In this document: positions 1 to 21,232 of the stretch, in pieces
Position numbering within the stretch: the first letter of the stretch is position 1
Layout of the letters: each line of letters begins with the position of its first letter
NCBI GenBank assembly: GCA_964432405.1
Contig: CAYSNH010000001.1
Span: 120,001-152,000 of the forward strand
Source of the DNA: an uncultured Candidatus Saccharibacteria bacterium
GTDB lineage: Bacteria > Patescibacteriota > Minisyncoccia > UBA6257 > UBA11618
DNA: 32,000 nucleotides
Reading direction: 5' to 3'
Position numbers and translations under genes: made by a program
Notes under the pieces: generated by a model
Seen by the model: only the letters and a program-made list of their open reading frames with translations
What the model was told of the DNA's origin: nothing
The model's database searches: none

Positions 1-1173
1 ATACATTAAGGGTTGAGAACAACGCCAACAGAAAGGATATTCATGCTCAATAGTTGTTTGATGATATAAAAACCCTCTCTTTTGAAGATCCTCCTTAATA
101 TCATCATCAGCTTGCTTAATAAACTTGCCAGCTCCCGGCAAGCCTTTTTTCATAATACCGTCTTCACTAACAGTTACTGGAATATCACCCTCTTCCATCT
201 CTTCCTTCATTATATTCAAATCCTCCTCACCAAAAGCCGGCGCCATGTGAACTAGACCAGTACCATCCTCGGCAGAAACAAATTCAGCTCCCACTACCTT
301 ATGAGGTCCTTTATTCTTATAAAGCGCCTCGTATTCTTTTCCTATCAAATCCTTACCCTTAACCTTATCTACAACCTCACTATCAACTTCTGGAGGAGCA
401 TTAACAGACCACAGATAATCCTTACCTACTTTATATTTGTTGTATATAAGATCTGGCTGGACTGCTATTGCAACGTTAGCTGGCAAAGTCCAAGGCGTAG
501 TAGTCCACACCAGCAAATACTCATTCTTAGCACCTTTAATTTTAAATTTTATATAAACAGAAGGGTCTTCGGTAAGCTTGTAAACTCCTGGCTGCCCCAT
601 TTCATGACTAGAAAGAGGTGTCTGACAACGCATGCAAAAAGGAACTACCTTATAAAATTTCTTCAAATACCCCTTCTTATCAACTTGCTGAAAAATCCAC
701 CAAAGAGTTTCTAAATATTTATTATCATAAGTAATGTAAGCTTGATCAAAGTCTAACCAAAAGCCAATTCTTTCAGTTAACTTCTCCCACTCATCTTTAT
801 ACTTCCAAACAGACTCTTTAGCCTTCTTATTAAACTTATCAATTCCATAGTCCTCAATCGCCTGTCTATTTTTTAAGCCTAATTTTTTTTCTACCTCAAT
901 CTCCACCGGTAAGCCTTGTGTATCCCAACCAGCTCGTCGAGAAATATAATAGCCTTGCATCGTTTTATAACGCAAAACCACATCCTTAAAAACACGTGCT
1001 AACACGTGATGAGTACCAGGTCGCCCATTAGCAGTCGGTGGGCCCTCATAAAAAACAAAGCTTTTCTTTTTATCTCTTTCTAGACTTTTTTCAAAGATTT
1101 TATTTTTCTTCCAAAACTCAAGAACCTTCTCTTCAATTTCTGGCAAGTTAAATCTTTCAGAGCCTTTAAGCAT
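1..1173 (-). CDS. ileS: isoleucyl-tRNA synthetase, N-terminal part (CDS runs off the left window edge)
   Basis: Absent from the ORF track because it is open at the window edge. My minus-strand translation from ATG 1173-1171 reads MLKGSERFNLPEIEEKVLEFWKKNKIFEKSLERDKKKSFVFYEGPPTANGRPGTHHVLARVFKDVVLRYKTMQGYYISRRAGWDTQGLPVEIEVEKKLG...KVVPFCMRCQTPLSSHE...TTTPWTLPANVAIAV with no stops down to position 1. The HIGH-region variant, GWDTxGLPVE and TTPWTLP motifs match the Thermus-type IleRS N-terminus. Confidence 0.9.
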   Translation of the reverse strand, partial: MLKGSERFNLPEIEEKVLEFWKKNKIFEKSLERDKKKSFVFYEGPPTANGRPGTHHVLARVFKDVVLRYKTMQGYYISRRAGWDTQGLPVEIEVEKKLGLKNRQAIEDYGIDKFNKKAKESVWKYKDEWEKLTERIGFWLDFDQAYITYDNKYLETLWWIFQQVDKKGYLKKFYKVVPFCMRCQTPLSSHEMGQPGVYKLTEDPSVYIKFKIKGAKNEYLLVWTTTPWTLPANVAIAVQPDLIYNKYKVGKDYLWSVNAPPEVDSEVVDKVKGKDLIGKEYEALYKNKGPHKVVGAEFVSAEDGTGLVHMAPAFGEEDLNIMKEEMEEGDIPVTVSEDGIMKKGLPGAGKFIKQADDDIKEDLQKRGFLYHQTTIEHEYPFCWRCSQPLMY

Positions 1174-1179
1174 ATATTC

Positions 1180-1208
1180 AAAATAAAATAAAAGAGCTAA
1201 TCAGTCAA
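1180..1208 (-). promoter_or_regulatory. putative sigma70-type promoter of ileS (TTGACT-17nt-TATTTT), 6 nt upstream of the ATG
   Basis: The minus strand reads TTGACT(1208-1203) gattagctcttttattt TATTTT(1185-1180) gaatat ATG(1173). There is no Shine-Dalgarno sequence between the -10 element and the ATG. The promoter overlaps the stop codon of the upstream ORF. Confidence 0.45.
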
Positions 1209-1859
1209 AAAATCTACACCCCAGGAACAAAAGCCGCACTCACTATGTGCTCGTGGCATTGGCCCTTGAATTAGCTCCGCTGCAGCTCGTACTACCCGAC
1301 GAGCTTTTTCAGAATCAGTAGCTACCTTCTTAACAACAACGTCAAACCTGGTCATCCCTCCCTCGCTAACTTCTTTAGAAATCCAATAGATAAGAAAAGC
1401 ATGACCAATATCAGGCATGTTATTTTCTTTAAGCATTAAGGCGTAACAATTCATCTGATTGAAATAATAATGCTCTCCACCCGGCTTTACATCATAACCT
1501 CGCGTCTTGTAATCAGCTGGTATATACAAGTCACCTTTGACCATCAAGTCATCTAAAGCGCCACTCAAAGTAGCCCCGCTCTCTGGATCGTTCCAAGTTA
1601 AACCAGTGCGCCAATTACGCCACCTATTCAAAGCCTCAACATCAGAAAACAACTCTGCCCCTTCAACCTCCCCCTCTATCTCCGGCGGCAACTTTCCTAC
1701 CGCTCGATATTTATCAAAATAAGTTTTAATTAAACCATCCATACCACCAGGCAAAGAAGGAAAAGGACCCATAGGTCGATGAACACCCATTTTCATTCGT
1801 AACCAAAAACATTTAGGACATTCGAGAAATAAATTTAAAGATGAGGGAGATAATCGCAT
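1197..1859 (-). CDS. PD-(D/E)XK (RecB/Cas4-like) nuclease family protein with terminal CxxC pairs
   Basis: 220-aa ORF. The N-terminal SPSSLNLFLECPKCFW is typical of PDDEXK_1/Cas4-like proteins. The catalytic-type motifs ALDDL...IPADYKT (D...DxK) and NQMNCY (QxxxY) are present. Cysteine pairs CPKC (N-terminal) and CGFC (C-terminal) suggest a metal or Fe-S site. G+C is visibly higher than in the flanking genes. Confidence 0.7.
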   Translation of the reverse strand: MRLSPSSLNLFLECPKCFWLRMKMGVHRPMGPFPSLPGGMDGLIKTYFDKYRAVGKLPPEIEGEVEGAELFSDVEALNRWRNWRTGLTWNDPESGATLSGALDDLMVKGDLYIPADYKTRGYDVKPGGEHYYFNQMNCYALMLKENNMPDIGHAFLIYWISKEVSEGGMTRFDVVVKKVATDSEKARRVVRAAAELIQGPMPRAHSECGFCSWGVDFLTD

Positions 1860-1866
1860 GGCAGTA

Positions 1867-1896
1867 ATTATAACTTATGCCTCCACTTATTTCCAA
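1867..1896 (-). promoter_or_regulatory. putative promoter of the nuclease gene (TTGGAA-18nt-TATAAT), 7 nt upstream of the ATG
   Basis: The minus strand reads TTGGAA(1896-1891) ataagtggaggcataagt TATAAT(1872-1867) tactgcc ATG(1859). The only GGAGG lies inside the spacer, too far upstream to act as an SD. Confidence 0.4.
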
Positions 1897-2054
1897 ATAA
1901 AAGGCTTGACTTTTAAATCTATATATACTATTTTAATGTGAATTGTTTAGCCTTAGTTCAAAGAACAAAGGTTGAGCAAAAGGTACTTTGTCAATTTCAG
2001 TGATCGGTTCATAACTCCACCAGTGAGTGCGAACCACAAAAAAGGACTTCCGTT

Positions 2055-3131
2055 ATGGCTAGTAACAAAGCGGCTAAGAGAGTTAAAAAAGCTGCTCTCA
2101 CCATTCACCATTCAGCACTTCATGTGCAAGAGGCTAGTGACGGCCTCCCGGAAAGAATTGTCATCCGAGGCGTAATTGACGCAAAAGAACTGGATCAAAT
2201 CATCTTTGATGATTATCAAAGATGTGAGCTGAGAGCAAAATCCCTCAAAAGAATCGCGGAAGGACTCAAGAATGGAACAGTCCTTCCCAACATCGATCTT
2301 GGAATGAGGGGGAGCAACGTAAGAAATCGCGAAAATACTCATTTTCTCTACAAGCCAGTCTTCTGCATCGACGGCAAACAACGAATTACTGTAGCAAAAC
2401 GATTGTTCGAAGAAGAAGGCCTTGCCTTTTCTTTAGGAGCGACAATTCACCTTGACACCAATTACCAATGGGAAATGGAAAGATTCAAACAACTGAATGC
2501 TTTCCGGACGTCAGTAAGTGGAAACGTCCTGCTGAGAAACATGAAGAAAGAGTCGAAGGTGGTGGCAATGCTCTACCGCCTAACAACGGAAGACAGCGGA
2601 TTCCCTCTGTATAGAAAGTGTCAATGGGATCAGTACAAGGGAAAGTGCATAATAACAGGAACAACTCTCCTAAAGATGGCCGCCATGATTCACAGCCATT
2701 GGGCATCAGGGTTGCTGGGCAGCTCCAGAGACGATCTAGTAAAGAGTCTGGAAACAGTGTTCCCGAAAATTGGCGAAAGAATATTTCGCGACAATGTGAA
2801 AACTCTCTTCGAACTCATCAATGAGATTTGGGGACTGACAGAGATTGTATATGTGAAGTCAGCCCCTCAACTAGGAAGCAACTTCCTATACTCACTTACC
2901 TCTGTTTTGGCCGATCATCCGATCTTCTGGAAAGACCGGAGATTAAAAATTCTCCAACCAGAGAAGAGCAAACTGAAAAAGTTCCCTCTGAACGATCCGT
3001 CCGTCATACAAATGGCAGGTGGCAGCGGAAAGATCCGTAACGTACTGCAAACGATGATCATTAAGCACATCAACAGCAGCAGGAGAAGTCGTAAGATTAA
3101 GACCTGGAAGGAAGAAGAAGCGAAAGGCTGA
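2055..3131 (+). CDS. ParB/sulfiredoxin-fold protein of the DUF262 / DGQHR (DndB-like) type, with no fused nuclease domain
   Basis: 358-aa ORF with an SD-like AAAGGA 8 nt upstream of the ATG. The motif order YQRCEL...LKNGTVLPNIDLG...PVFCIDGKQRITVAKRL matches the (F/Y)QR ... hydrophobic-P ... IDGQ(Q/H)R signature of DUF262/DndB-type ParB-like domains. The rest of the protein and its basic C-terminal tail are unassigned. G+C-rich relative to the window. Followed by a strong terminator. Confidence 0.6.
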   Translation: MASNKAAKRVKKAALTIHHSALHVQEASDGLPERIVIRGVIDAKELDQIIFDDYQRCELRAKSLKRIAEGLKNGTVLPNIDLGMRGSNVRNRENTHFLYKPVFCIDGKQRITVAKRLFEEEGLAFSLGATIHLDTNYQWEMERFKQLNAFRTSVSGNVLLRNMKKESKVVAMLYRLTTEDSGFPLYRKCQWDQYKGKCIITGTTLLKMAAMIHSHWASGLLGSSRDDLVKSLETVFPKIGERIFRDNVKTLFELINEIWGLTEIVYVKSAPQLGSNFLYSLTSVLADHPIFWKDRRLKILQPEKSKLKKFPLNDPSVIQMAGGSGKIRNVLQTMIIKHINSSRRSRKIKTWKEEEAKG

Positions 3132-3160
3132 TCGCTTCCAGCCTTAGAGTCGTCAGTCAC

Positions 3161-3191
3161 CCCCCCGCCTGAATTCAGGTGGGGGGTTTTT
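3161..3191 (+). terminator. rho-independent terminator of the 2055-3131 gene
   Basis: CCCCCCGCCTG aatt CAGGTGGGGGG forms an 11-bp stem with one G-U pair, followed by TTTTT (3187-3191). Confidence 0.85.
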
Positions 3192-3196
3192 AATTT

Positions 3197-3217
3197 AAAA
3201 ACCCCTGCTAAAGGGGC
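3197..3217 (-). terminator. rho-independent terminator downstream of ssrA
   Basis: On the minus strand, CCCCU uuagc AGGGG is followed by UUUUU, about 25 nt after the tmRNA 3' end. It sits back to back with the plus-strand terminator at 3161-3191. Confidence 0.6.
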
Positions 3218-3240
3218 TTTTAAAAAAATAATATAAATTG

Positions 3241-3583
3241 TGGAAGTGAGGGGAATTGAACCCCTGTCCGAAATATTTCTGCCAGATTTTCTACAAGCTT
3301 AGCCAAGTTAAATTTTGAGACCAATTAGCTCATTCTTGGCAAAAAACTAATTAGTCTTTGTCGGTTAATTTTTATTTCCTAGTCCCGACAACTAAGAAAC
3401 TAAGCTCGCTGTTTAACACCGGTGATGACCTAACGAGCATCAGCCGCCGATGCAGCATTTAAGCGTAAGCTAATGCTGGAGTTCGATTAACGTTGCCGTT
3501 TATCGGTTGTTTCAAATTTTAAAGAGTTTGAACTCTGCTTGCTTATCTAGTTTCAACCTTTCGTCGAAGCCTAGACCACTCCC
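3241..3583 (-). ncRNA. ssrA: tmRNA (SsrA), about 343 nt
   Basis: The minus-strand 5' end GGGAGUGGUCUAGGCUUCGACGAAAGG matches the conserved GGGG..G...GG.UUCGAC start. The 3' end GGACAGGGGUUCAAUUCCCCUCACUUCCA contains a T-arm plus the acceptor strand. Acceptor pairing GGGAGUG/CACUUCC includes the G3:U70 alanine identity pair. An internal tag reading frame at 3497-3459 (GGC AAC GUU AAU CGA ACU CCA GCA UUA GCU UAC GCU UAA) encodes GNVNRTPALAYA*, followed by a hairpin GCAUC-GGCGGCU-GAUGC. CCA is not fully encoded: the next bases are CAA. Confidence 0.9.
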
Positions 3584-3986
3584 TTTTCTTAATGTCCTCG
3601 CGTTTGTCAGCCCTCTTCTTTCCTCGACCTAAGCCGATCTCCATCTTCAACAAACGCCCTTTATTATAAACCCGTAAAGGCACTATTGTCAAGTTCTTCT
3701 CCTTAGTCTTTCCCATTAAACTTTTAATTTCTGCCGCTGACAATAAAAGTTTTCTAGTTCTCTTAGGATCATAGTCTTCAGGAGTGTTAGCCGGTTGATA
3801 AGGTGGTATATTAGCATTTAATAACCAAGTCTCGTTCTTTTTGATCACCACAAAAGAACCAGCCAGATTAATATGCCCAGTTTTAATGGCTTTAACCTCA
3901 AAACCTTTTAATTCCATACCCGCTTCGAAAGTATCTAATATCTCATAATCTCTACGAGCACCCCTATTTACCGCTATATTTTTCAT
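3543..3986 (-). CDS. smpB: SsrA-binding protein SmpB
   Basis: 147 aa. NRGARRDYEILDTFEAGMELKGFEVKAIK and the basic C-terminal tail are typical of SmpB. The gene lies immediately upstream of, and overlaps, ssrA. Confidence 0.92.
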   Translation of the reverse strand: MKNIAVNRGARRDYEILDTFEAGMELKGFEVKAIKTGHINLAGSFVVIKKNETWLLNANIPPYQPANTPEDYDPKRTRKLLLSAAEIKSLMGKTKEKNLTIVPLRVYNKGRLLKMEIGLGRGKKRADKREDIKKREWSRLRRKVETR

Positions 3987-6134: not shown

Positions 6135-7097
6135 CTACATTCTATCTTCAGGCTCCACATAACTAAGACCTAAGGCTTTATAAATTTCCTCTTCGGTCTT
6201 TCCTGCGATCTGCTTACTACCTTTAAATAAACCATATTCATTTAACTTATAACCCTTTTTTAAGGCTAATTGACGAAGACCAATGTTATGATCCTTGGGA
6301 CCGGTAAAATAATTAAGGGCTGCTCCATAGGACTCCTCAGGAATCACTCTCAAATCGGCGTCTAGGCCACTTTTTAACTTAACCAGGGCCTTGGTAGTTC
6401 CTTTGGCAAAAACCTCCTCTACCTCCGGCATTGCGACAAAAAAATCTATTATCTTCTTACCAAATACCGATTTAGCACAAACTACTATATCAATATCACC
6501 AATTGTTTTTTTACCTCTCCTCAATGAGCCTGCTATCGTTACTTTTTTAACCCCCTTGAAACGTTTTAATTTCCTTTCAATGGCTTTTGCTTGTGGCAAA
6601 GCAACGGCCAAAGCTTGCCGTCCTTTTGATTGCCTTAGATATCCCAAGCCTCTCAAAATATTCTGCTCACTCTTTGCACCAAACCCCTTTAACTTACCAA
6701 CCTTACCCAACTTAATTGCTCTCTCTAACTGCTTAACTGTTTTAATACCTAGCTTCTCATAAAGAGTTTTGATGTTTTTTGGCCCCAAGCCTTCAATTGC
6801 TGTTAGCTCTGATAAATCAACTGGGATCTTCTTTTTTAATTTCTGATAATATTTTAACTTACCCGTCTTGATTAACTCCTCTATCTTTAAAGCAATAGAC
6901 TTACCAACTCCTGGAACATTCTCCAAAGCCTCAAGCCCTCCTTCCTTATATATATCCACCAAGCTCTTTTTCAGACCCGTGATAACATCCGCCACCTTTT
7001 CATAGGCCTGAGGCTTAAAAGCCACACCCTGCATCCTTAAACGATCTGAAATTTCATAAAATATTTTAGCAATTTCCGAATTCTTAATAATCTTCAT
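6135..7097 (-). CDS. family X DNA polymerase (Pol beta-like core only, no PHP domain)
   Basis: 320 aa. It has HhH-type GVGKSIALKI and GLGPKNIKTL motifs and the nucleotidyltransferase motif GSLRRGKKTIGDIDIVV. Its length corresponds to the polymerase core without the C-terminal PHP domain of most bacterial PolX proteins. Confidence 0.75.
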   Translation of the reverse strand: MKIIKNSEIAKIFYEISDRLRMQGVAFKPQAYEKVADVITGLKKSLVDIYKEGGLEALENVPGVGKSIALKIEELIKTGKLKYYQKLKKKIPVDLSELTAIEGLGPKNIKTLYEKLGIKTVKQLERAIKLGKVGKLKGFGAKSEQNILRGLGYLRQSKGRQALAVALPQAKAIERKLKRFKGVKKVTIAGSLRRGKKTIGDIDIVVCAKSVFGKKIIDFFVAMPEVEEVFAKGTTKALVKLKSGLDADLRVIPEESYGAALNYFTGPKDHNIGLRQLALKKGYKLNEYGLFKGSKQIAGKTEEEIYKALGLSYVEPEDRM

Positions 7098-8435: not shown

Positions 8436-8666
8436 TTAGATAATGTAAAAGATTCTAATTATTAACCAGATAGGAATCAAAGCCCAAACAAAATAAATAA
8501 TAATTGCTATCAAAAAAGCCGCCCAATAAAGAATGAGGCTGTGACGCAAAGAGCAAACTAATTTTTTAAAAATTACATAAGTATTTCCATACCAATGAAT
8601 GAAAAAACCCAGCAACCTATTTAAAAAACTGCTGACCAAATAAGTAATCGTTAAATCTAATCTCAT
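8436..8666 (-). CDS. small hypothetical membrane protein
   Basis: 76-aa ORF with two hydrophobic helices, tightly packed between its neighbours. There is no other support. Confidence 0.3.
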   Translation of the reverse strand: MRLDLTITYLVSSFLNRLLGFFIHWYGNTYVIFKKLVCSLRHSLILYWAAFLIAIIIYFVWALIPIWLIIRIFYII

Positions 8667-19942: not shown

Positions 19943-21232
19943 TTAAAGATCAGCCCAATTTTTTCCTATCGACACATCAACCTTGAGACGCACAGGAAAA
20001 TCATAAACCGTTTCCATAATTTGAGTGATTTTTTTAACTACACTATTAACTTTATCACTCTTAATCTCAAACAACAATTCATCATGAATTGATAAAAGAA
20101 GCCTTACGTCATCATTTTTATATTGCTGATAAACTTTAATCATAGCTAACTTAATAATATCTGCCGCCAAGCTCTGAATGGGCATATTAATCGCCGCTCG
20201 CTCAGCCTCAGAGGCTAAAAATCTATTAACAGAATTGATGGCTGGTAGCCAACGCTTTCTACCATTCAGATTTTCAACATAACCGATCTTCAACGCCTTC
20301 TTTTTAATCTTTTCTTGCCACGCTTTTATCTTCTTAAAATCAGCTAAATATTCTTTAATGAAATGATCGGCCTCTTTTCTGCTCAAGCCACTACTACGAG
20401 CAAAAGCAACCGCTCCCATTCCATAAACAATTCCAAAGTTAAGTGTCTTAGCCATCTTCCTCATATCTACTGTTACTTTATCAAGCTCCACATTAAAAAC
20501 CTGGCTGGCTGTAAGGCGATGAATGTCTTGATCTTTTTTAAAGGCACTGATCATTTTTGGATCATTACTTAAACCAGCTAAAATTCTTAATTCAATCTGT
20601 GAATAATCTAAAGAAACCAACTTGTATCCTGGGCTAGCAATAAAAACCCTCTTAACCACTAAAGGAATGTTCTGAAGGTTGGGATTTTGAGAGCTTAATC
20701 TTCCTGTTGCGGTACTAGTCTGAAGAAAAGTTGTATGAACACGATCACCTAATTTTATTAATGGCTCTAAATAAGTAGATTTTATTTTAAAAGACTCTCT
20801 ATATTGAATAATTAATTTAATAATCGTGTGCTCTTCTTTTAGATCTTGTAACTTTTCTGCTCTAGTTGAATGCAAGCCACTTTTAGTAGCTCTCCCCCTT
20901 GGTTTAATCTCTAATTTTTCAAATAAAATTTTAGAAAGTTGCTGTGGGGAATTTATATTAAATTCTTCACCCGCCTCCTTATAAATATTTTTTTCTAATG
21001 TTTGTAATTCTTTATTGTAATCAGTTAAAAGTTTCTTGACGGTTTTTTTATTAATCTTAATTCCTAATCTCTCCATTGATCTTAAGACCTCAACCAAGGG
21101 TAGCTCAATCTCATTAAATATCTTTTCCAAACCCTCTTCTTTCAACCTACCTAGTAAATCTCCCTCGTCACTCATTGGGTTATCAGGGTTAAGAAGCCAA
21201 TTAGCTATTTTATTTTTTATTTCTTGATTCAT
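19943..21232 (-). CDS. polA: family A DNA polymerase, polymerase domain only (split PolA, C-terminal gene)
   Basis: 429 aa with Pol I motifs: motif A SLDYSQIELRILA, motif B RKMAKTLNFGIVYGM and motif C SIHDELLFE. It starts at the thumb region, with no 3'-5' exonuclease-like domain. Confidence 0.9.
   Translation of the reverse strand: MNQEIKNKIANWLLNPDNPMSDEGDLLGRLKEEGLEKIFNEIELPLVEVLRSMERLGIKINKKTVKKLLTDYNKELQTLEKNIYKEAGEEFNINSPQQLSKILFEKLEIKPRGRATKSGLHSTRAEKLQDLKEEHTIIKLIIQYRESFKIKSTYLEPLIKLGDRVHTTFLQTSTATGRLSSQNPNLQNIPLVVKRVFIASPGYKLVSLDYSQIELRILAGLSNDPKMISAFKKDQDIHRLTASQVFNVELDKVTVDMRKMAKTLNFGIVYGMGAVAFARSSGLSRKEADHFIKEYLADFKKIKAWQEKIKKKALKIGYVENLNGRKRWLPAINSVNRFLASEAERAAINMPIQSLAADIIKLAMIKVYQQYKNDDVRLLLSIHDELLFEIKSDKVNSVVKKITQIMETVYDFPVRLKVDVSIGKNWADL

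What the first reader, a model, noticed from the sequence alone, without database searches (positions are those of the whole stretch)
1174..3240. G+C-rich two-gene insertion between ileS and the tmRNA 3' end: Cas4-like PD-(D/E)XK nuclease divergent from a DUF262/DndB-like ParB-fold protein (candidate two-component defence module)
Seen in the sequence: the block 1197-3131 is compositionally foreign. My hand counts of 60-nt lines give 27/60 G+C at 2581-2640 and 32/60 at 2701-2760, against 19/60 at 8521-8580 and 11/60 at 20761-20820. The richer composition also produces a pile of nested spurious ORFs on both strands (six track ORFs between 2112 and 3160). On the right the block abuts the 3' end of ssrA (3241), with back-to-back terminators at 3161-3217. 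Gene A (1197-1859, minus) carries RecB/Cas4-type motifs (ECPKCFW, ALDDL...IPADYKT, QMNCY, C-terminal CGFC). Gene B (2055-3131, plus) carries the YQR ... LPNIDL ... IDGKQRIT arrangement of DUF262/DGQHR ParB-like modules. Established knowledge: tmRNA 3' ends are classic island integration sites. DUF262 modules are the NTP-binding or sensing half of GmrSD and SspE type IV restriction enzymes, where they are fused to a DUF1524/HNH nuclease. DndB is a standalone relative. Inference: gene B has no fused nuclease, and a PD-(D/E)XK nuclease is transcribed divergently from a shared 195-bp control region. The pair could therefore be a split, nuclease-swapped GmrSD/SspE-like DNA-surveillance system. No dnd/ssp modification genes, integrase or att repeat are visible, so it may be a decayed or minimal island.
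Basis: partly seen in the sequence, partly recalled or inferred. Interest (0 to 1): 0.7.

Follow-up and report, generated by a model that had tools for sequence, protein, structure and literature searches.

The report
Lone phage-derived ParB-like gene beside tmRNA
This is not a two-gene defence island: one foreign, phage-type ParB/DndB-like gene was recently inserted next to the tmRNA gene of a marine Patescibacteria lineage, and it happens to sit beside a resident Cas4-like nuclease gene that it shows no sign of working with.

Summary
The sequence facts are correct: coordinates, G+C hand counts, motifs, nested ORFs, back-to-back terminators and the tmRNA 3' end all check out. The domain calls also hold. 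Gene A is a PD-(D/E)XK/Cas4-like nuclease. Gene B is a DUF262/DndB-type ParB-fold protein with no fused nuclease.

The "two-gene insertion / split GmrSD-like system" reading fails its own refutation tests. Gene A is a resident gene: it has over 1000 homologues (top 120 listed 53-100% identical, several named Patescibacteria), it lies next to ileS in relatives, and its GC3 is native (0.345, z=0.6).

Four close relatives (gene A 89-95% identical) have an empty site, with the tmRNA 3' end about 80 nt from the gene A start. Only about 1905-3237 is inserted: gene B plus a promoter-like site and a strong terminator. Its GC3 is 0.49 (z=3.0).

Gene B belongs to an unannotated family of 461 clusters found mainly on viral contigs, in replication/regulatory modules. 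The family has no conserved partner.

Homologues of A and B never co-occur outside this lineage, in 82 loci examined.

Gene B's function is inferred only: an NTP-gated DNA-binding protein acting alone. No integrase or att repeat was found.

The parts
1..1173 (-). 5' part of ileS (isoleucyl-tRNA synthetase). A resident flanking gene, not part of the insertion.
   Evidence: tblastn and Pfam context in L003, L004 and L006.
1197..1859 (-). Gene A: a resident Cas4-like PD-(D/E)XK nuclease of 220 aa. Across 15 family members aligned, D103, D116-Y117-K118, Q135...Y139 and four Cys (14, 17, 208, 211) are invariant.
   Evidence: Pfam PDDEXK_1 1.2e-12. TIGR00372 cas4 scores 28 bits against a cut-off of 65. 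1042 homologues. Invariant columns. GC3 0.345, z=0.64. Syntenic in relatives.
1860..1904 (-). Native spacer retained upstream of gene A. It holds gene A's promoter-like site, TTGGAA-18-TATAAT, at 1896->1867.
   Evidence: Aligns with the empty-site relatives L045 and L052-L054. Promoter scan.
1905..3237 (+). The inserted segment, about 1.33 kb. It replaces a spacer of about 40 nt that held the ancestral tmRNA terminator hairpin. The boundaries are accurate to a few bases.
   Evidence: Empty-site and filled-site alignments. No flanking direct or inverted repeat above chance.
1906..1934 (+). Promoter-like site for gene B (TTGACT-17-TATTTT, 9 of 12), lying at the insertion boundary.
   Evidence: Consensus scan only. 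Inference.
2055..3131 (+). Gene B: a stand-alone ParB/Srx-fold protein of DUF262/DndB type, 358 aa. Motifs are QR (55-56), DGxQR (106-110) and FxxxN (144-148), followed by a helical C-terminal domain from about residue 150 to 358.
   Evidence: Family of 461 clusters. Invariant residues. 64 of 111 members hit GmrSD_N and 16 of 111 hit DndB. AF2 model pLDDT 83.8. Foldseek matches to ParB, Noc, KorB and BrxU, and to viral GmrSD_N/DndB-like proteins. GC3 0.492, z=3.0.
3161..3196 (+). Intrinsic terminator of gene B: an 11-bp stem with 9 G-C pairs, followed by a T tract.
   Evidence: I3.
3202..3215 (-). Short hairpin plus T tract just downstream of the tmRNA. It is the replacement tmRNA terminator and lies within the inserted segment.
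   Evidence: Absent from the empty-site spacers.
3238..3583 (-). tmRNA gene (ssrA). Its 3' end forms the left junction of the insertion.
   Evidence: Rfam RF00023, 149.9 bits. ARAGORN.
3543..3986 (-). smpB, a resident gene whose 3' end overlaps the tmRNA 5' end by 41 nt. The smpB-ssrA cassette is inverted in this clade relative to more distant relatives.

Best explanation
Only gene B is an insertion. A segment of about 1.33 kb (window ~1905-3237) was acquired recently by a narrow marine Patescibacteria sublineage. It carries one gene, a promoter-like site and a strong terminator. It landed between the 3' end of ssrA and the promoter of a resident gene, and it replaced about 40 nt of spacer that held the old tmRNA terminator.

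Gene A is a resident, lineage-conserved Cas4-like PD-(D/E)XK nuclease. It happens to be the next gene along.

Gene B belongs to an unannotated family that is native to phages and sits in their replication/recombination/early-regulation modules. Members are stand-alone proteins with a ParB/Srx N-terminal domain of the DUF262/DGQHR type (QR, DGxQR, FxxxN) and a helical C-terminal domain. This is the DndB/NsnA-type architecture, with no DUF1524/HNH nuclease.

Inferred mechanism: the three motifs form a nucleotide pocket, NTP binding or hydrolysis gates DNA binding by the helical domain, and the protein acts alone. It would be either a DndB-like DNA-binding regulator or exclusion factor, or an Osa-like NTP-regulated DNA nickase.

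The structural and evolutionary statements are shown by the evidence. The biochemical activity and any benefit to the host are inferred.
For: Empty and filled sites:
- Empty sites occur in L045 (UBA11618) and L052-L054, where gene A is 89-95% identical. There the tmRNA 3' end is about 80 nt from the gene A start.
- Filled sites occur only in the window, L003, L002 and L072.
- Outgroups L004-L006 and L055 also lack gene B.

Composition and selection:
- GC3 is 0.492 for gene B and 0.345 for gene A, against a genome mean of 0.305.
- The gene B ORF is intact in four strain variants and keeps every invariant residue of the family.

Fold and family:
- The exhaustive search finds 461 clusters.
- 64 of 111 members hit GmrSD_N (best 9e-8) and 16 of 111 hit DndB. 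PADLOC gives weak hits to DzbA, NsnA, DpdB and DndB.
- The AF2 model has pLDDT 83.8. The top PDB matches are all ParB, Noc, PadC, KorB or BrxU. BFVD matches are viral GmrSD_N, DndB-like and ParB/Srx proteins, down to 2.8e-9 with TM up to 0.54.
- The motif definitions come from PMC12065111 and PMC4619093.

Context of the family:
- 32 IMG/VR loci and one clear phage carry it. Neighbours include GcrA, RusA, HTH, HNH, ERF and DnaB.
- In phage contigs the family gene's GC3 is close to that of its neighbours (median z about 1). In three low-GC cellular loci it is an outlier.
- No neighbour family is conserved: the best is found in 7 of 36 loci.
- No A/B co-occurrence was found elsewhere.
Against: - The window protein itself matches no Pfam, NCBIfam, PADLOC or PDB sequence model. 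Its family assignment is therefore transitive and structural.
- The W of the QRxxxW motif is absent.
- pN/pS among strain variants is high (0.6-1.1, from small counts). This could mean relaxed constraint.
- Foldseek TM-scores against PDB entries are low (0.2-0.3). Only the N-terminal domain is clearly matched.
- The insertion mechanism is unknown: no integrase, no att repeat, no terminal inverted repeats.
- A newly evolved functional link between A and B after the insertion cannot be excluded from sequence alone.
Confidence: 0.75

Rival explanations
1. Genes A and B form a split, nuclease-swapped GmrSD/SspE-like two-component DNA-surveillance system. They arrived together as an island and are transcribed divergently from a shared control region.
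For: - Both domain assignments hold.
- The genes are adjacent and divergent, 195 bp apart.
- DUF262 proteins without their own nuclease do work with separate effectors in Menshen, Dazbog and the GmrS1/GmrSD2 doublet (PMC12065111, PMC12373910).
Against: - Gene A is present at the same place in four empty-site relatives and in more distant relatives that lack gene B.
- Gene A has native GC3.
- Its promoter-like sequence is the same with and without gene B.
- There are 42 A-family loci and 40 B-family loci with no co-occurrence outside this lineage.
- The B family has no conserved partner at all.
Confidence: 0.05
2. Gene B is an inert leftover of a larger tmRNA-targeting integrative element or prophage. 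The integrase and the rest of the element were deleted. Gene B is a passenger drifting towards pseudogenisation, with no present function.
For: - It sits exactly at the ssrA 3' end, a classic island site by established knowledge.
- Its GC3 is foreign.
- pN/pS is 0.6-1.1, with a substitution hot spot and a 21-nt indel in the 5' half.
- It lies on the longest branch of the sampled family tree.
Against: - The ORF is intact in all four strain variants, and the indel is in frame.
- All invariant and nearly invariant family residues are retained.
- It keeps a strong terminator and a promoter-like site.
- No integrase fragment or att-like repeat is present.
- Two other low-GC genomes hold independently acquired lone copies with the same gene-plus-terminator layout. 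This suggests the single gene is retained for a reason.
Confidence: 0.15
3. Gene B is a one-protein defence or superinfection-exclusion gene (a phage 'moron'). It senses incoming, possibly modified, DNA through its DUF262 domain and itself nicks or blocks that DNA.
For: - DUF262 domains act as sensors of modified DNA in GmrSD and SspE (PMC12065111).
- ParB/Srx domains such as Osa, Bce_0392 and GmrS have NTP-regulated DNase activity (PMC5512222).
- The family gives weak PADLOC hits to DzbA, NsnA, DpdB and DndB.
- Lone copies were captured repeatedly by low-GC genomes.
- The N-terminal domain evolves fast between strains.
Against: - No PADLOC model matches the window protein.
- No neighbouring defence genes are present.
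- In phages the gene sits among replication and regulatory genes, not in obvious moron positions.
- No recognisable nuclease domain is present.
- No experimental data exist for any member of the family.
Confidence: 0.2

Closest known systems
DndB (PF14072, DGQHR domain; regulator of the dnd phosphorothioation operon)
   Same: Stand-alone protein of similar size (about 350-380 aa). It has a ParB/Srx N-terminal domain with the QR, DGxxR and FxxxN motifs, a helical C-terminal DNA-binding domain and no nuclease domain. 16 of 111 family members give DndB hits. BFVD matches include 'DNA-sulfur modification-associated' proteins.
   Different: The motif is DGxQR (DGKQR here), not DGQHR. The window protein does not match the DndB model. 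No dndACDE, ssp or dpd genes lie within 10 kb. The family is mostly phage-borne.
DUF262 / GmrSD_N (PF03235) sensors: GmrSD, BrxU, SspE; NsnA (Menshen), DzbA (Dazbog), GmrS1
   Same: The same three motifs and the same fold. 64 of 111 family members hit GmrSD_N (best 9e-8). BrxU is among the PDB fold matches. Viral stand-alone GmrSD_N proteins are the best whole-length structural matches (TM up to 0.54).
   Different: There is no fused DUF1524/HNH domain, and no conserved NsnB/NsnC, DzbB or second GmrSD partner. The W of QRxxxW is not conserved. All ten members checked individually score below Pfam's gathering cut-off.
Osa and other NTP-regulated ParB/Srx DNases of mobile elements (PMC5512222)
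   Same: A solo ParB/Srx-fold protein carried by mobile elements. It could combine NTPase and nicking activity in one pocket.
   Different: No sequence-level relationship was shown here. The activity is untested.
Cas4 / RecB-family PD-(D/E)XK nucleases (for gene A)
   Same: PDDEXK_1 is matched above its cut-off. The D...DxK and QxxxY motifs and four invariant Cys are present. PADLOC Cas4 models match down to 1.4e-10.
   Different: The score is below the TIGR00372 equivalog cut-off (28 against 65 bits). No CRISPR array or cas genes are present. The Cys are arranged 2 + 2 (CxxC ... CxxC). The gene is conserved and syntenic with ileS/smpB in Patescibacteria.
tmRNA (ssrA)-targeting genomic islands
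   Same: Foreign DNA starts at the very 3' end of ssrA.
   Different: The segment is only 1.33 kb and holds one gene. It has no integrase and no duplicated ssrA 3' segment. It replaces about 40 nt rather than duplicating a target.

Membership tests
DUF262 / GmrSD_N (PF03235) | Match to the Pfam model at or above the gathering score (33.2 bits) | tested here: not met
   The window protein has no hit at E<=1. 64 of 111 family members hit at E<=1, best 9e-8. The ten members scanned individually scored at most 22.6 bits.
DUF262 / GmrSD_N (PF03235) | Three motifs: QRxxxW (I), DGxQR (II), FxxxN (III) (PMC12065111) | tested here: met
   Q55-R56, D106-G107-x-Q109-R110 and F144 are invariant and N148 is at least 90% conserved across 143 sequences. 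The W of motif I is not present, so this resembles the DGQHR-type 'QR pair' (PMC4619093).
ParB/Srx fold | N-terminal domain adopts the ParB/sulfiredoxin fold | tested here: met
   The AF2 model has pLDDT 83.8. The top 22 PDB Foldseek matches are all ParB, Noc, PadC, KorB, pNOB8-ParB or BrxU, with probability 0.63-1.0 and E down to 1.9e-3. BFVD gives 46 matches at E<=1e-3, annotated as GmrSD_N, DndB or ParB/Srx.
GmrSD / SspE type IV restriction enzymes | DUF262 coupled to a DUF1524/HNH nuclease, either fused or as an adjacent GmrD | tested here: not met
   No HNH or DUF1524 hit in gene B or its family. The neighbours are ssrA and gene A. No conserved HNH neighbour is found in 36 loci.
   0 of 30 A-family cellular loci outside this lineage carry a B-family gene. 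The same is true of 0 of 10 A-family viral loci. 0 of 39 B-family loci outside the lineage carry the partner.
   The empty sites in L045 and L052-L054 keep gene A and lack gene B.
DndB (PF14072) of dnd systems | DndB model match and linkage to dndACDE | tested here: not met
   The window protein has no hit. 16 of 111 family members hit weakly. No dnd genes lie within +/-10 kb.
NTPase activity of the DGxQR pocket | Binds or hydrolyses NTP | not testable with these tools
   Inferred from motif conservation only.
Cas4 (TIGR00372 equivalog), for gene A | Score at or above 65 bits, and a CRISPR-cas neighbourhood | tested here: not met
   The score is 28 bits. No arrays are present. No cas genes lie within +/-10 kb.
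PD-(D/E)XK nuclease superfamily (PF12705), for gene A | Model match above the cut-off, and a catalytic D...(D/E)xK | tested here: met
   48.7 bits against a cut-off of 22. D103 and D116-x-K118, together with Q135/Y139, are invariant in 15 sequences.
ssrA-targeting integrative island | Integrase gene, and a direct repeat of the ssrA 3' end at the far junction | tested here: not met
   There is no integrase ORF in 1905-3237. Alignment scores at the far junction are no better than shuffles. No terminal repeats were found.
ssrA-targeting integrative island | Foreign DNA begins at the 3' end of ssrA | tested here: met
   Homology with the empty sites ends at the tmRNA 3' terminus.

The most novel reading that the evidence does not exclude
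The gene B family (461 clusters at 50% identity, with no Pfam, NCBIfam or PADLOC model and no solved member) could be a new functional class of solo DUF262/DndB-like ParB NTPases native to phages. It repeatedly lands as a self-contained, GC-rich single-gene cassette (gene plus strong terminator) in small low-GC genomes. Under this reading it is either a one-protein exclusion or defence factor with intrinsic NTP-gated nicking, or a gene that promotes its own transfer.
Probability: 0.2. Interest if true: 0.6.

Novelty: new member of a known kind. Interest (0 to 1): 0.3.

Why it matters
As proposed (a nuclease-swapped, split GmrSD/SspE system), the finding would have been a new defence architecture. 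The evidence shows that the adjacency is coincidental, so that claim should not be carried forward.

Three smaller points remain:
- There is a clean example of a single-gene horizontal acquisition at a tmRNA 3' end in a streamlined Patescibacteria genome, with empty and filled sites both in hand.
- There is a sizeable, unannotated, phage-borne clade of stand-alone DUF262/DndB-like proteins with no known function. A family model and one experiment would be worthwhile.
- Cas4-like genes in Patescibacteria are conserved residents and should not be read as defence effectors from adjacency alone.

Tried and rejected
- Single-sequence searches of gene B against Pfam, NCBIfam, PADLOC, PHROGs and PDB found nothing usable.
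- The word-indexed homologue search found only 2 relatives, which wrongly suggested an ORFan. The exhaustive profile search corrected this to 461 clusters.
- AF2 with a 3-sequence alignment failed (pLDDT 38.8). A 13-sequence alignment worked.
- A profile search of PDB sequences with the 143-sequence family alignment gave only chance hits.
- tblastn of gene B and of phage homologue P0277 against GenBank phages found no match.
- The family alignments were too diverse for the genome-contig scan. The single genome scan was therefore spent on gene A.
- I searched for an att-like copy of the ssrA 3' end or of the ancestral spacer at the gene A side of the insert. A MAFFT or local alignment looked suggestive ('AATTCACATTAAAATAG' against 'AATCACATAAAAAGAG'), but it scored no better than shuffles or random genomic 46-mers, so I rejected it.
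- No terminal inverted repeats were found.
- I considered whether the CAA-versus-CCA difference at the tmRNA end marks the junction. I rejected this because other empty-site relatives also lack an encoded CCA.
- A conserved-neighbour search for the B family found no partner.
Full report
**Observation.**
- The window is a low-GC genome (35.8% G+C) and corresponds to a marine Patescibacteria MAG lineage. It is 98.5% identical over 7 kb to JGI contig Ga0315337_000178 (L003). The nearest named genome is 'Patescibacteria group bacterium UBA11618'.
- Five further ORFs of at least 60 aa nest inside gene B on both strands.
- The tmRNA lies on the minus strand with its 3' end at 3238-3240.
- Two terminator-like hairpins sit back to back: 3161-3186 on the plus strand (11-bp stem) and 3215-3202 on the minus strand.

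**Composition separates the two genes.**
- Among 32 non-overlapping ORFs of the window, mean GC3 is 0.305 (sd 0.063).
- Gene B has GC3 0.492 (z=3.0), the only real gene at that level.
- Gene A has a raised total G+C (0.427) because of codon positions 1 and 2. Its GC3 is 0.345 (z=0.64), which is native.
- So the 'foreign block' is gene B, not A+B.

**Gene A.**
- It matches Pfam PDDEXK_1 (48.7 bits against a cut-off of 22) and PADLOC Cas4 models (to 1.4e-10).
- It falls below the NCBIfam cas4 equivalog cut-off (28 against 65 bits).
- No CRISPR array and no cas genes within 10 kb are present.
- In 15 aligned members, D103, D116-Y-K118, Q135...Y139 and four Cys (CxxC near each end) are invariant.
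- It has 1042 detected homologues. The best 120 are 53-100% identical, and several are named as Patescibacteria (Harrisonbacteria and others). More distant copies (34-43%) occur on 10 viral contigs, and phrog_31195 matches at 1.8e-41.

**Synteny and the empty site (the decisive result).**
- In relatives whose gene A is about 65% identical (L004, L005, L006), the order is IF3(-), tmRNA(-), smpB(-), geneA(+), (argS), ileS(+). Gene B is absent.
- In four close relatives (gene A 89-95% identical: L045 = UBA11618, L052, L053, L054), the order is IF3(-), smpB(+), tmRNA(+), geneA(+), ileS(+). Only about 80 nt separate the tmRNA 3' end from the gene A start codon.
- Gene B is present only in the window and three near-identical environmental contigs (L003, L002, L072).
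- Alignment of filled and empty sites places the junctions at the tmRNA 3' terminus (about 3237/3238) and at about 1904/1905, which is 45 nt upstream of gene A's ATG.
- The retained 45 nt contain gene A's promoter-like TTGGAA-18-TATAAT. This sequence is the same in empty-site relatives.
- The ancestral spacer of about 40 nt held a hairpin terminator that shows compensatory changes in L053. It has been replaced by 1.33 kb.
- The replacement brings a promoter-like TTGACT-17-TATTTT at its edge (1906-1934), gene B, gene B's terminator and a new small terminator for the tmRNA.
- No integrase, no terminal inverted repeats, and no duplicated ssrA 3' segment or spacer remnant above chance were found.
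- By parsimony and by GC3, this is a recent single-gene gain, not a loss in relatives.

**Gene B identity.**
- On its own the protein matches nothing: Pfam shows only DUF7567 at E=0.022, and PADLOC, NCBIfam and PDB sequences give no hit.
- The word-indexed search found only two relatives.
- The exhaustive profile search found 461 cluster representatives at E<=1e-3, of which 300 are at E<=1e-30. Nearly all of the best 150 listed are full-length proteins of about 330-420 aa.
- Across 143 aligned members, G39, Y54-Q55-R56, D106-G107-x-Q109-R110, E140, F144 and W191 are invariant, and N148 is at least 90% conserved.
- These correspond to the three signature motifs of DUF262/DGQHR domains: the QR pair, DGxQR and FxxxN (PMC12065111, PMC4619093). 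The tryptophan of QRxxxW is absent.
- Scanning 111 members individually, 64 hit GmrSD_N (best 9e-8) and 16 hit DndB (best 2e-5). The ten checked one by one were all sub-threshold.
- PADLOC gave weak hits to DzbA, NsnA, DpdB and DndB, all ParB-type components.
- An AF2 model from a 13-sequence alignment reached pLDDT 83.8.
- Its 22 best PDB matches are all ParB-family proteins: ParB, Noc, PadC, KorB, pNOB8 ParB-N and the GmrSD enzyme BrxU.
- In BFVD, 46 matches at E<=1e-3 are viral proteins annotated as GmrSD_N, DNA-sulfur-modification-associated or ParB/sulfiredoxin. Whole-length TM reaches 0.54 to stand-alone proteins of about 370 aa.
- The C-terminal 200 residues are helical and carry no HNH or DUF1524 signature.

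**Where the family lives.**
- 32 IMG/VR viral contigs carry it. One set of contigs is clearly phage, with GcrA, DUF6197, a lysozyme and large tail-like genes.
- I clustered all ORFs within +/-8 kb in 36 loci. The commonest neighbour family is present in only 7 loci and at variable positions.
- Recurrent neighbours are GcrA, RusA, HTH, HNH, ERF, DnaB and an AAA ATPase. This is a replication/recombination/early-regulation module.
- In viral contigs (43-65% G+C) the family gene's GC3 is close to that of its neighbours (median z about 1).
- In two other low-GC cellular loci it is an outlier, as in the window: L011 has 0.59 against 0.36, and L007 has 0.58 against 0.40.
- In those two loci it is again a lone gene followed by an 11-12-bp-stem terminator.
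- In a neighbour-joining tree the three cellular copies are not a clade. L007's closest relative is a viral contig (56%), and the window copy sits on the longest branch (at most 40% identity to anything).
- I read this as independent captures from a phage gene pool.

**Test of the two-component idea.**
- tblastn with 11 B-family queries found a B gene in only L003 and L072, out of 32 cellular A-family loci (290 kb).
- Seven A-family queries found an A gene in only L002, out of 40 B-family loci (569 kb).
- Ten viral A-family loci have no B gene.
- All the positives are the window's own lineage.

**Is gene B functional?**
- The ORF is intact in four strain variants, including an in-frame 21-nt indel at 2063-2083, and it keeps every family-invariant residue.
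- Divergence between the window and L003 is concentrated in gene B's 5' half. About 25 substitutions fall in roughly 420 nt, against about 1% elsewhere.
- pN/pS is 0.6-1.1 on small counts.
- This fits weak constraint or diversifying pressure on the ParB domain. It does not fit decay.

**Mechanism (inferred).** By analogy with DndB, NsnA and the DUF262 halves of GmrSD/SspE, the QR, DGxQR and FxxxN residues would form an NTP pocket that gates DNA binding by the helical domain (PMC12065111). With no partner, the protein would act alone in one of two ways. It could be a DNA-binding regulator or exclusion factor, or, as for Osa and other ParB/Srx proteins of mobile elements (PMC5512222), an NTP-regulated nickase. 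None of this was tested.

**Verdict.**
- The system-level interpretation is wrong. The thing present is a lone, phage-derived DndB/DUF262-like gene recently inserted at the ssrA 3' end, beside a resident Cas4-like nuclease.
- It is a new member, from an unannotated clade, of a known superfamily.
- Interest is modest. It lies mainly in the clean empty/filled-site pair and in the uncharacterised phage family.

Noticed in passing
window 3238-3986; compare L004 7225-7964 and L006 6972-7722: The smpB-ssrA cassette is inverted in the window clade (window, L003, L045, L052-L054) relative to more distant relatives (L004, L005, L006, L055). In those relatives smpB diverges from gene A with only about 36 nt between the two genes. 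The inversion predates the gene B insertion.
   Followed up: partly
window 3543-3692: The smpB stop codon (3543) lies 41 nt inside the tmRNA gene (5' end at 3583 or beyond). The same overlap occurs in L004. A perfect 12/12 sigma-70 consensus (TTGACA-18-TATAAT, 3692->3663, minus strand) sits inside the smpB coding sequence upstream of the tmRNA.
   Followed up: no
window 3238-3241; L045 ~3611-3614: The tmRNA 3' CCA is not encoded in the window (CAA) or in L052-L054 (CTA), but it is encoded in L045 (CCA). Maturation in most of these strains must therefore rely on a CCA-adding enzyme.
   Followed up: no
L003 10687-14079 (window ileS continues beyond position 1); L006 10553-13963: The IleRS of this lineage is 1130-1136 aa and has a His_Phos_1 (PF00300) hit between two tRNA-synt_1 stretches. 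The L004 enzyme is 949 aa and has no such hit. This may be a histidine-phosphatase-like insertion in an aminoacyl-tRNA synthetase.
   Followed up: no
L011 9688-10743 and L007 10001-11035: Two other low-GC cellular loci carry a lone B-family gene with strongly elevated GC3 (z = 2.9 and 2.1). Each gene is followed within about 25 nt by an 11-12-bp-stem terminator and sits among housekeeping genes (rseP-like/proS; HD/NUDIX). The layout matches the window's cassette, but the copies are phylogenetically independent.
   Followed up: partly
window 2001-2500: This is a strain-level divergence hot spot. Between the window and L003, substitutions are about six times denser in the 5' half of gene B (the ParB domain) than in flanking genes. 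There is also an in-frame 21-nt indel at 2063-2083 in the basic N-terminal tail.
   Followed up: partly
L045 3615-3695; L053 4915-4997: The empty-site spacer holds a hairpin flanked by an A run and a T run (AAAAAGAGGTTGGG-TTTTTA-CCCCGCCTCTTTTT). It shows compensatory substitutions in L053 (GGAGCTGGG...CTCAGCTCC). It is probably the ancestral, possibly bidirectional, tmRNA terminator that the insertion replaced.
   Followed up: no
window 6135-7097 (-); L004 3233-5002: The PolX-like DNA polymerase gene is 320 aa in the window lineage. In L004 and L006 it is 581-589 aa with a PHP domain, so the PHP half is missing here.
   Followed up: no
L073-L082: The gene A family is not purely cellular. Ten IMG/VR viral contigs encode homologues at 34-43% identity, and the window protein matches phrog_31195 (function unknown) over its full length at 1.8e-41.
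   Followed up: partly
window 301-714 (+): A 137-aa ORF antisense to ileS has GC3 0.496. It is a spurious ORF that mimics the compositional signal of gene B, and it serves as a caution against using G+C alone.
   Followed up: yes
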